NCBI RefSeq assembly: GCF_057098645.1
Contig: NZ_CM169472.1
DNA length: 64,000 nt
Strand: one strand, 5' to 3'
Part shown: positions 48,800-49,357 of the stretch, in pieces
Numbering within the stretch: position 1 is the first letter of the stretch
How the letters are laid out: every line of letters starts with the position of its first letter
The notes under the pieces: generated by a model
What the model saw: the letters and a program-made list of their open reading frames with translations, nothing else
The model's database searches: none
Told to the model about the DNA's origin: nothing
Position numbers and translations under genes: made by a program

Positions 48800-49193
48800 A
48801 CCGGAAAAAGGAAAGTTTGAGAAACGCGATCTGGCACAGGCGGTTATTAATGCTGCCTACCTGGTGGCCTGTGCAGATGGTGAATGTGAGGCTTCCTAGA
48901 AAGCGAAGATCGAACAGGTACTGCGTAATCAGCCTGCGCTGTCCGCGTTTACGTCAGAAATTAATGCGATTAGCGCAACCATTATCGGTCAGCTGGATAC
49001 GAACTTTAAAATTGGTCGTCGTGCGGCGTTACGTGAGATCGAGGATGTGAAACACGATACGCGTGAAGCGGAAGATGTGCTGGATGTGGCGGTGGCCATT
49101 GCGGAGGCAGACGGCGAAATTGAGCCGGAAGAGCGCAAGGTGCTGGAAGAGATTGCCGGTGTTCTGGGTCTTCGTCTGGAGAATCACCAGTGA
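48800..49193 (+). pseudogene. TerB-like domain gene remnant
   Basis: Frame reads ...DLAQAVINAAYLVACADGECEAS*KAKIEQ...DVAVAIAEADGEIEPEERKVLEEIAGVLG; ADGE...EE pattern is TerB-like; no start codon and an in-frame TAG. Confidence 0.4.
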
Positions 49194-49357
49194 CGGTAAA
49201 ACTGCGCCTGGCTGTGGCTGCACTCCTGCTGTTTCTGGTGGTGATGGTGGATTTCACCAGCAGAATCATGTCGGTGCTGGCGGATGGGGTGCTGGTCTGC
49301 GGCATTGTGGTATTGCTGTGGCCGGTGATAAAAAGAAACAGCCTGCATAATGCTTGA
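49190..49357 (+). CDS. small hydrophobic protein (55 aa)
   Basis: GTG start overlapping the remnant's stop (caGTGA); two predicted transmembrane segments. Confidence 0.3.
   Translation: MTVKLRLAVAALLLFLVVMVDFTSRIMSVLADGVLVCGIVVLLWPVIKRNSLHNA

What the first reader, a model, noticed from the sequence alone, without database searches (positions are those of the whole stretch)
48800..49357. TerB-like gene remnant followed by an overlapping small membrane ORF
A TerB-like reading frame has no start codon and an internal TAG, so it is a decayed gene. A 55-codon two-helix membrane ORF starts at a GTG overlapping its stop. The pair may be the remains of a cargo operon damaged by the neighbouring IS event.
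Basis: partly seen in the sequence, partly recalled or inferred. Interest (0 to 1): 0.3.

Follow-up and report, generated by a model that had tools for sequence, protein, structure and literature searches.

The report
Dead phage tciA gene, intact tciB
This is an ordinary, already annotated remnant of a dispensable two-gene phage accessory module (P1-type tciA-tciB): the TerB-like gene lost its start through an old 1.9 kb deletion and later gained a stop codon, neither caused by the nearby insertion sequence.

Summary
A TerB-domain frame (48801-49193, Pfam TerB E=1.7e-11) has no ATG/GTG/TTG start and an in-frame TAG at 48897-48899. A 55-codon DUF3927 ORF (49190-49357, E=4e-17) starts at a GTG overlapping its TGA.

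It is not new. RefSeq annotates the identical sequence in O26:H11 11368 and other EHEC genomes as "TerB family protein, pseudo, internal stop" plus "DUF3927 family protein".

The pair is homologous to phage P1 tciA-tciB. Intact copies occur in E. coli prophages, phage JLK-2012 and jumbo Erwinia/Salmonella phages.

The missing start comes from a 1,925-bp deletion. It fused the leader downstream of the late promoter to tciA codon 19, removing a small gene, a DNA methylase and tRNA genes. The TAG replaces invariant Glu46 (GAG in intact alleles). Some alleles carry the deletion but keep GAG, so the deletion very likely came first.

The IS explanation fails. The IS629/IS1203-like element (47126-48433) cuts the Q antiterminator gene 375 bp upstream, and genomes with intact Q and no IS there carry both lesions.

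The function of tciAB is untested; P1 does not need it for lytic growth. Low interest.

The parts
48801..49193 (+). Remnant of a tciA (TerB-family) gene. It lacks codons 1-18 and the start codon, and is closed upstream by TAA 48798-48800.
   Evidence: Translation. Pfam TerB E=1.7e-11. Alignment to intact alleles. PGAP pseudogene at the equivalent place in O26 11368.
48812..48814 (+). Deletion junction (AAA microhomology). It joins the leader and Shine-Dalgarno region of a 65-aa late gene to tciA codon 19. 1,925 bp are missing relative to UPEC-774U (L003 576-2500).
   Evidence: BLAST end-points 48435-48814 = L003 196-575 and 48812-49338 = L003 2501-3028. Sequences read directly.
48897..48899 (+). 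Internal TAG replacing GAG (Glu46), an invariant residue of the first ADGExxxxE motif.
   Evidence: Alignment with O157 SS17 and UPEC-774U. Invariant columns of the 28-pair alignment. 235 records hold the TAG-centred 95-mer at >=99% identity.
49047..49193 (+). 48-codon GTG-started ORF inside the remnant (C-terminal TerB fragment). Probably not a gene: its Shine-Dalgarno-like GAGG lies only 3 nt from the GTG.
   Evidence: ORF list. PHROG 3920 is a 48-aa family matching residues 96-143 of intact TciA, so this fragment appears to have been called as a gene in phage annotations.
49190..49357 (+). Intact tciB homologue (DUF3927 family, 55 aa) with two hydrophobic segments. GTG start in a GTGA overlap with the tciA stop; own Shine-Dalgarno GGAG at 49178-49181.
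   Evidence: Pfam DUF3927 E=4e-17. PHROG 1470 E=4e-30. 58% identity to P1 TciB over 33 aa. The same ORF is annotated as WP_000216636.1 in the 100%-identical O26 11368 sequence.
48599..48698 (+). Late-promoter-like site (TTGATT, 16 nt, TAAATT, 48599-48626) and terminator-like hairpin (48674-48691 plus T run) upstream of the remnant. This would be the transcription entry to the module.
   Evidence: Terminator scan. Position directly after the Q stop codon, and conserved in ST131 and UPEC-774U. The promoter is read by eye and by remembered similarity to lambda PR'; it fell below the scanner threshold.
48434..48593 (+). C-terminal 53 codons of the Q antiterminator gene, cut by the IS.
   Evidence: Maps to L001 3001-3160, the end of the annotated antitermination protein.
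47126..48433 (-). IS3-family element (IS629/IS1203-like). No target-site duplication (flanks gcg / cct). It replaces about 2.45 kb holding DUF968, rusA and most of Q.
   Evidence: Terminal inverted repeats TGAACCGCCCCGGG read at both ends. ALIL frameshift pseudoknot at 120 bits. PGAP names in matching genomes. Colinearity with L001.

Best explanation
The locus is the decayed copy of a two-gene phage accessory module homologous to phage P1 tciA-tciB. It lies in the late operon of a lambdoid E. coli prophage, between the Q/late-promoter region and the sialate esterase and lysis genes.

How it decayed:
- An old 1,925-bp deletion at an AAA microhomology removed a 65-aa gene, a DNA methyltransferase, two or three tRNA genes and tciA codons 1-18. 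This left the TerB domain without a start codon.
- A later GAG to TAG change destroyed invariant Glu46.
- Both lesions were inherited with the prophage segment and are shared by hundreds of EHEC genomes.
- The IS629/IS1203-like element is a separate, later event. It removed most of Q, so this prophage cannot antiterminate its own late operon.

Current state:
- tciA is non-functional (shown).
- tciB is intact and has its own Shine-Dalgarno sequence, so it could still be translated whenever the late transcript is made (inferred).
- tciB is most likely an orphan drifting without selection (inferred, weak).

How the intact module probably works:
- TciA is a soluble TerB-fold protein with two acidic ADGExxxxE motifs.
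- It is made by coupled translation with TciB, a small membrane protein.
- The two probably act together at the inner membrane as a non-essential phage moron (inferred, not shown).
- The phenotype is untested; the names tellurite resistance, colicin resistance and cell-division inhibition come only from homology.
For: Identity and prior annotation:
- Domain hits.
- The identical sequence is annotated as a pseudogene plus a DUF3927 protein in O26 11368.
- Intact pairs with GAG at the TAG site.
- P1 TciA is 51% identical over the full length to the intact lambdoid protein. P1 TciB is 58% identical over 33 aa to the window ORF.
- PDB TerB 2JXU matches intact TciA at E=4e-8.

The lesions:
- Deletion end-points.
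- L097 and L098 carry the deletion but keep GAG, so the deletion very likely came first.
- All six other sampled genomes with the deletion architecture also carry the stop.
- The IS sits 375 bp away, and the lesions occur where there is no IS.

The pair as a module:
- 224 of 240 loci with a TciA homologue have a DUF3927-like ORF directly downstream, and 189 of those overlap by 4 or 1 nt.
- tciA shows purifying selection between this allele and intact ones: 19 synonymous against 3 amino-acid changes plus the stop.
- In P1, tciA, tciB and tciC are scored non-essential by CRISPRi (PMC10695390). The operon is missing from about half of P1 subgroup 1 phage-plasmids (PMC9603915).

tciB drift:
- Among tciA-dead alleles, tciB differences from the window are 4 distinct non-synonymous changes (one the nonsense W44*) against 1 synonymous change.
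Against: - No expression or phenotype data exist for any member of this module. The membrane-complex model rests on gene order, start/stop overlap and hydropathy only.
- The AlphaFold model of a TciA-linker-TciB fusion gave a confident TerB part (pLDDT 73-89), but TciB came out as one long helix rather than a hairpin. No inter-chain confidence was available.
- The counts suggesting tciB drift are tiny.
- The identical 55-aa tciB is kept in many genomes. That could mean retained function, or simply recent common ancestry.
- The two natural TciA-TciB fusion proteins need two compensating indels and may be assembly errors.
Confidence: 0.9

Rival explanations
1. The neighbouring IS insertion damaged the operon: transposition or IS-mediated deletion removed the 5' end of the TerB-like gene.
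For: - An IS3-family element without a target-site duplication lies 375 bp upstream and did cause a 2.45 kb loss.
- In other genomes (2015C-3101 and, from the identical hit pattern, probably O111:H8 08-4455) an IS1203 copy does abut the TerB remnant, so IS activity at this locus is real.
Against: - The sequence from 48434 to the junction at about 48812 is colinear with IS-free genomes.
- O26 11368 has intact Q and no IS here, yet carries both lesions at 100% identity. Five further sampled genomes carry them too.
- The junction is a plain AAA microhomology deletion with no IS end.
Confidence: 0.03
2. The gene is really intact or still expressed: the TAG is a sequencing error or is suppressed, and translation starts at a non-canonical codon (CTG 48831, as in NCBI's 120-aa model).
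For: - NCBI annotates a 120-aa CTG-started TerB family protein (P0042, 284 member sequences) in alleles that have the deletion or a frameshift but no TAG.
- The whole Pfam TerB domain lies downstream of the CTG.
Against: - The TAG is present in independently sequenced complete genomes: 235 records at >=99% over the TAG-centred 95-mer.
- There is no tRNA gene, and therefore no suppressor tRNA, in the window.
- No good Shine-Dalgarno sequence sits at a usable distance from the CTG.
- Glu46 is invariant in the family.
Confidence: 0.03
3. tciB (DUF3927) is the functional unit and remains under selection on its own. The dead tciA only serves as its 5' leader, and possibly as the leader of the STnc100/PasD-like sRNA that starts 8 nt after the tciB stop.
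For: - tciB is intact with its own GGAG Shine-Dalgarno sequence 8 nt from the GTG.
- DUF3927 ORFs without a TerB gene are annotated in many E. coli genomes.
- An sRNA with a strong Rfam score follows immediately.
Against: - The 'solo' DUF3927 examined (ST131) is itself an N-terminally rearranged 43-aa remnant.
- W44* truncations occur both next to a dead tciA and next to an intact one.
- Changes in tciB among tciA-dead alleles are mostly non-synonymous.
- 224 of 240 TciA loci keep the pair together.
Confidence: 0.25

Closest known systems
RefSeq/PGAP annotation of the same locus, e.g. E. coli O26:H11 11368 ECO26_RS31805 (TerB family, pseudo, internal stop) and ECO26_RS10200 (DUF3927 family protein WP_000216636.1)
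   Same: 100% identical DNA from window 48434 to 49770, with the same pseudogene call and the same 55-aa protein.
   Different: In that genome Q is intact and there is no IS upstream. The window has a unique IS-Q junction not seen in 5,426 complete genomes.
[quoted passage not shown]
   Same: - TciA is 51% identical over the full length to the intact lambdoid protein, and TciB is 58% identical over 33 aa.
- Same gene order, overlapping start and stop, and tRNA genes nearby.
- Dispensable accessory genes (PMC10695390, PMC9603915).
   Different: - No tciC homologue in the window.
- tciA is dead here.
- The setting is a lambdoid late operon rather than the P1 dmt-ban region.
Intact lambdoid tciA-tciB pairs: phage JLK-2012 (Q, tRNAs, tciA, tciB, yjhS, S, R, Rz), UPEC-774U prophage, O157:H7 SS17 prophage
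   Same: Same position between Q/tRNAs and the sialate esterase and lysis genes, at 90-98% nucleotide identity over the shared part.
   Different: - They keep the ATG, codons 1-18 and GAG46.
- The window lineage lost the upstream methylase and tRNA block.
- SS17 has the reverse decay: tciA is intact and tciB is truncated by W44*.
TerB of the terZABCDEF tellurite-resistance operon (Klebsiella TerB, PDB 2JXU)
   Same: Same domain: Pfam PF05099, 2JXU E=4e-8 over residues 13-137 of intact TciA. All-helical fold; the best structural match is 2H5N at Foldseek probability 1.00 but E=0.058, which is not significant.
   Different: No terC, terD, terZ or other ter genes nearby. The partner is a 55-aa membrane protein instead of TerC. 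A tellurite phenotype has never been shown for TciA.
stx and other late-operon morons of lambdoid phages
   Same: The module occupies the slot downstream of Q, the late promoter and the tRNA genes, and upstream of nanS-p and the lysis genes. That stx genes sit in this slot in Stx phages is from my own knowledge, partly supported by the Zhu et al. preprint. Expression would likewise depend on Q read-through (inferred).
   Different: Unrelated proteins, with no known virulence role.

Membership tests
TerB domain family (Pfam PF05099) | Profile match above the curated cut-off | tested here: met
   44.8 bits against a cut-off of 24.4, E=1.7e-11, on the conceptual translation with the TAG masked. 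The intact relative matches PHROG 632 over 1-143/143 at E=9e-69.
TerB domain family (Pfam PF05099) | Complete ORF with a start codon and no internal stop | tested here: not met
   TAA at 48798-48800, no ATG/GTG/TTG before TAG 48897-48899. It is a pseudogene, not a member protein.
TerB domain family (Pfam PF05099) | Both acidic ADGExxxxE motifs intact | tested here: not met
   The first motif loses invariant Glu46 to the TAG. The second (A116-E124) is intact.
TerB domain family (Pfam PF05099) | TerB-like helical fold | tested here: met
   Tested on the intact relative only. 2JXU E=4e-8 by sequence. The AlphaFold TerB part has pLDDT 73-89. The top Foldseek hit is 2H5N, probability 1.00, target-normalised TM 0.59, but E=0.058. 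That 2H5N is a TerB-superfamily structure is from memory.
TerB domain family (Pfam PF05099) | Tellurite, phage or colicin resistance phenotype | not testable with these tools
   No experiment on any TciA was found in the papers searched.
ter operon (terZABCDEF) | Neighbouring terC, terD, terZ or terA genes | tested here: not met
   The neighbours are the Q stub, tciB, sRNA genes and a SASA esterase.
Phage P1-type tciABC module | TciA homologue followed directly by a TciB homologue with overlapping start and stop | tested here: met
   GTGA overlap at 49190-49193. Homology shown. The same arrangement occurs in 224 of 240 loci.
Phage P1-type tciABC module | Third small gene tciC | tested here: not met
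   No similarity between P1 TciC and the ORF after tciB. Lambdoid versions are two-gene modules.
DUF3927 (Pfam PF13064) / PHROG 1470 TciB-like | Profile match above the cut-off over the whole length | tested here: met
   62.3 bits against a cut-off of 25, residues 3-51. PHROG 1470 over 1-54/54, E=4e-30.
DUF3927 (Pfam PF13064) / PHROG 1470 TciB-like | Two-helix membrane hairpin | tested here: inconclusive
   Two hydrophobic segments with basic ends, but AlphaFold drew one continuous helix at pLDDT about 70-80.

The most novel reading that the evidence does not exclude
Not the remnant itself, but the intact module it derives from. tciA-tciB, often with same-strand tRNA genes just upstream, is a conserved mobile cassette shared by three unrelated phage types: lambdoid, P1-like, and jumbo Machinavirus phages of Erwinia and Salmonella. 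More distant phage TerB homologues are also followed by small membrane ORFs. This would be a minimal TerB-plus-membrane-anchor system with a still unknown role at the host inner membrane during phage development, for example ion or membrane-stress handling, or exclusion of competitors.
Probability: 0.3. Interest if true: 0.4.

Novelty: already known. Interest (0 to 1): 0.1.

Why it matters
It matters little for this window. The locus is a correctly annotated pseudogene plus a small conserved ORF, found in hundreds of EHEC genomes.

Two things are useful:
- The decay history is now explicit: deletion first, then the nonsense mutation, and independently an IS that removed Q. This warns against blaming the nearest IS for every broken gene.
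- The survey shows that tciA-tciB is a tightly coupled and widely spread phage accessory pair, common in pathogenic E. coli prophages, whose function has never been tested.

Tried and rejected
- **tRNA scan of the whole window for a suppressor tRNA:** no tRNA genes found.
- **PADLOC defence models:** only a marginal hit for TciA (E=0.0025) and nothing for TciB, so there is no basis for calling it a known defence system.
- **Literature:**
  - 'DUF3927' is held by 2 papers; the one listed has a single passing mention, which I did not open.
  - The tciA/tciB search returned mostly unrelated Trypanosoma genotype papers. The few relevant ones give only homology-based names.
  - The P1 genome paper could not be opened.
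- **AlphaFold2 on a TciA-(GGGGS)5-TciB fusion with a 28-row paired alignment:**
  - Mean pLDDT 71.7, pTM 0.53, with TciB drawn as one straight helix.
  - No inter-domain confidence was returned, so it says nothing about a complex.
  - Foldseek on that model gave only a weak TerB-like hit, 2H5N at E=0.058.
- **TciC homologue after tciB:** none.
- **MAFFT's apparent similarity between the window's upstream sequence and the true tciA 5' end:** rejected as spurious. The two are in different frames, and the upstream part is clearly the leader of another gene.
- **Natural TciA-TciB fusion proteins (P0004, P0064) as Rosetta-stone evidence:** set aside as weak. They need two compensating indels and have few members.
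- **Synonymous versus non-synonymous counts among dead alleles:** too few differences to prove neutrality.

Full report
**1. What is in the sequence**

- The frame that ends at TGA 49191-49193 translates as ...VSR*PEKGKFEKRDLAQAVINAAYLVACADGECEAS*KAKIEQVLRNQ...GVLGLRLENHQ*.
- It is closed upstream by TAA 48798-48800, and no ATG, GTG or TTG occurs before the internal TAG at 48897-48899.
- With the TAG masked, the 130-residue translation matches Pfam TerB (PF05099) at 44.8 bits against a cut-off of 24.4, E=1.7e-11.
- The 55-codon ORF 49190-49357 starts at a GTG that overlaps the TGA (GTGA). It has a GGAG 8 nt upstream.
- It matches Pfam DUF3927 (62.3 bits) and PHROG 1470 'TciB-like' over its full length (E=4e-30).
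- It has two hydrophobic segments separated by DFTSR.

**2. It is already annotated**

- All 30 top-listed complete E. coli genomes match window 48434-49770 at 100%.
- They carry the feature names 'antitermination protein | TerB family protein | DUF3927 family protein | SASA family carbohydrate esterase'.
- In O26:H11 11368 the TerB feature is flagged 'pseudo, internal stop', and the small ORF is WP_000216636.1, 'DUF3927 family protein'.
- The TAG-centred 95-mer is present at >=99% identity in 235 records from serogroups including O26, O103, O121 and O145. The TAG is therefore real, not a read error.

**3. Intact relatives and the nature of the two lesions**

- Intact 143-aa genes exist in O157:H7 SS17 and UPEC-774U. 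They sit after a tRNA-Ile/tRNA-Arg cluster and before the esterase gene.
- The alignment shows GAG (Glu) where the window has TAG. Homology to the window begins only at about codon 19.
- The window's upstream 215 bases (48600-48814) are instead homologous to the stretch that follows Q in ST131 and UPEC-774U. That stretch ends at the Shine-Dalgarno sequence and ATG of a 65-aa gene.
- BLAST end-points (48435-48814 = L003 196-575; 48812-49338 = L003 2501-3028) define a 1,925-bp deletion with a 3-nt AAA overlap, inside imperfectly similar CGGAAA...AAAAG runs.
- The deletion removed the 65-aa gene, a DNA methyltransferase, the tRNA genes and tciA codons 1-18 (MFGIFKKKTRRAAAEIKK).
- The TAG falls on Glu46, which is invariant in a 28-pair alignment spanning 41-93% identity to the reference pair. 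It is part of the first of two ADGExxxxE motifs.
- Two contigs (L097, L098) have the same junction but keep GAG, so the deletion very likely preceded the nonsense mutation. NCBI models a 120-aa CTG-started protein on those alleles.
- A third, independent lesion exists in CP054314: an A5 to A4 frameshift in a full-length 5' end.
- All six other sampled genomes with the deletion architecture also carry the stop.
- Among 5,426 complete genomes, 483 show the deletion architecture and 789 show the full-length architecture.

**4. The IS is a separate event**

- The IS3-family element (IS629/IS1203-like) has inverted repeats TGAACCGCCCCGGG and an ALIL frameshift pseudoknot at 120 bits. It spans 47126-48433 on the minus strand.
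- Its right end cuts Q, leaving the last 53 codons (48434-48593).
- Relative to O26 11368, about 2.45 kb holding DUF968, rusA and most of Q is missing.
- The flanks (gcg / cct) show no target-site duplication. This points to an IS-mediated deletion or to recombination between two IS copies.
- Between the IS and the tciA junction lie 375 bp that are colinear with IS-free genomes. They include a lambda-like late promoter candidate (48599-48626) and a terminator-like hairpin (48674-48691).
- Both tciA lesions occur at 100% identity in a genome with intact Q and no IS here. The IS therefore did not cause them.
- The IS does mean that this prophage has lost its own Q, so late-operon expression would need a Q protein supplied in trans (inferred).
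- No complete genome shares this exact IS-Q junction.

**5. What the pair is**

- A search of phage records found the pair annotated as tciA/tciB in phage JLK-2012, in the order Q, tRNAs, tciA, tciB, yjhS, S, R, Rz.
- It also found weaker DNA similarity to P1 and P7 tciA/terB with tciB/upf69.4.
- At protein level, P1 TciA is 51% identical over its full length to the intact lambdoid protein. P1 TciB is 58% identical over 33 aa to the window ORF.
- The pair also occurs, again just after tRNA genes, in jumbo Machinavirus phages of Erwinia and Salmonella.
- In 240 loci with a TciA homologue, 224 have a DUF3927-like ORF directly downstream, and 189 of those overlap by 4 or 1 nt.
- About half of the loci have same-strand tRNA genes within 1 kb upstream.
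- More distant TerB homologues (35-57% identity) are followed by other small hydrophobic ORFs.
- Intact TciA matches the solved Klebsiella TerB (2JXU, E=4e-8).
- P1 tciA, tciB and tciC are scored non-essential by CRISPRi (PMC10695390). The operon is a variable region missing from about half of P1 subgroup 1 phage-plasmids (PMC9603915).
- A 2026 preprint lists TerB (PF05099) among the conserved neighbours of prophage Pas sRNAs (10.64898/2026.05.13.724894).
- No paper found tests the function. [quoted passage not shown]

**6. How it most likely works**

- *Shown:* tciA here cannot make a TerB-domain protein. tciB is intact with its own ribosome-binding site.
- *Inferred for the intact module:* a soluble, acidic, probably metal-binding TerB-fold protein is co-translated with a small membrane protein and acts at the inner membrane as a late-expressed, dispensable moron.
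- *tciA selection:* the gene was under purifying selection before it died. Against UPEC-774U there are 19 synonymous changes and 3 amino-acid changes plus the stop.
- *tciB drift:*
  - Among dead-tciA alleles, tciB differs from the window at 4 distinct non-synonymous sites (one the nonsense W44*) and 1 synonymous site.
  - Many 'DUF3927' calls elsewhere are themselves remnants.
  - I therefore think the window's tciB is an orphan that has not yet decayed. The numbers are too small to be sure.
- *AlphaFold:* the model of a linked TciA-TciB was confident for the TerB part only and could not address a complex.

**7. Verdict**

- The feature is already known and annotated. Interest is low.
- The only open question is the untested function of the widespread tciA-tciB module.

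Noticed in passing
window 49365-49554 (+) and 49555-49616 (-): Two sRNA genes lie directly after tciB. STnc100 (related to PasD according to a 2026 preprint) scores 147.8 bits, starts 8 nt after the tciB stop and ends at a strong terminator (49525-49542). AgvB (anti-GcvB) scores 96.5 bits on the opposite strand. STnc100 could be a 3'-UTR-type product of the tciAB transcript.
   Followed up: partly
window 47126-48433 and flanks: The IS629/IS1203-like element has no target-site duplication (gcg / cct). About 2.45 kb (DUF968, rusA, most of Q) is missing relative to O26 11368, so this prophage has no Q antiterminator of its own. The same left junction occurs in strain Z1323HEC0422 with a different right flank. 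The exact IS-Q junction was not found in 5,426 complete genomes.
   Followed up: partly
window 48599-48698: A lambda-like late promoter candidate (TTGATT, 16 nt, TAAATT, followed by AACGATGGG) and a short-leader terminator survive intact after the Q stub. They would give a short StxS-like transcript. The promoter reading rests on remembered similarity to lambda PR'.
   Followed up: no
window 46497-46910: A hok/sok toxin-antitoxin locus (sok 105.9 bits; hokD ORF 46665-46820), followed by a weak isrK-like hit (30.5 bits, below the cut-off) that ends at a terminator.
   Followed up: no
L003, L007, L008, L094, L095 and 229 other loci: tciA-tciB lies just downstream of same-strand tRNA genes in lambdoid, P1-like and jumbo Machinavirus phages, in about half of all loci. 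This suggests that tRNA genes and tciAB travel together as one cassette.
   Followed up: partly
window 49047-49193; PHROG 3920: A 48-aa PHROG family corresponds to the GTG-started C-terminal fragment of TciA. Phage annotations have evidently called this pseudogene fragment as a gene repeatedly.
   Followed up: no
L002 (O157:H7 SS17) 2879-3010; L011 (DEC9B); L243 (2015C-3101): Reciprocal decay. In O157:H7 SS17 tciA is intact but tciB is cut by TGG to TAG (W44*). In DEC9B and 2015C-3101 both genes are damaged, and in 2015C-3101 an IS1203 copy abuts the tciA remnant.
   Followed up: partly
L006 (ST131) 4532-5052: In ST131 prophages tciA is replaced by an unrelated low-GC 117-codon ORF. The adjoining 'DUF3927 family protein' is a 43-aa N-terminally rearranged remnant. 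The slot between the tRNAs and the esterase gene looks like a hot spot for cargo exchange.
   Followed up: no
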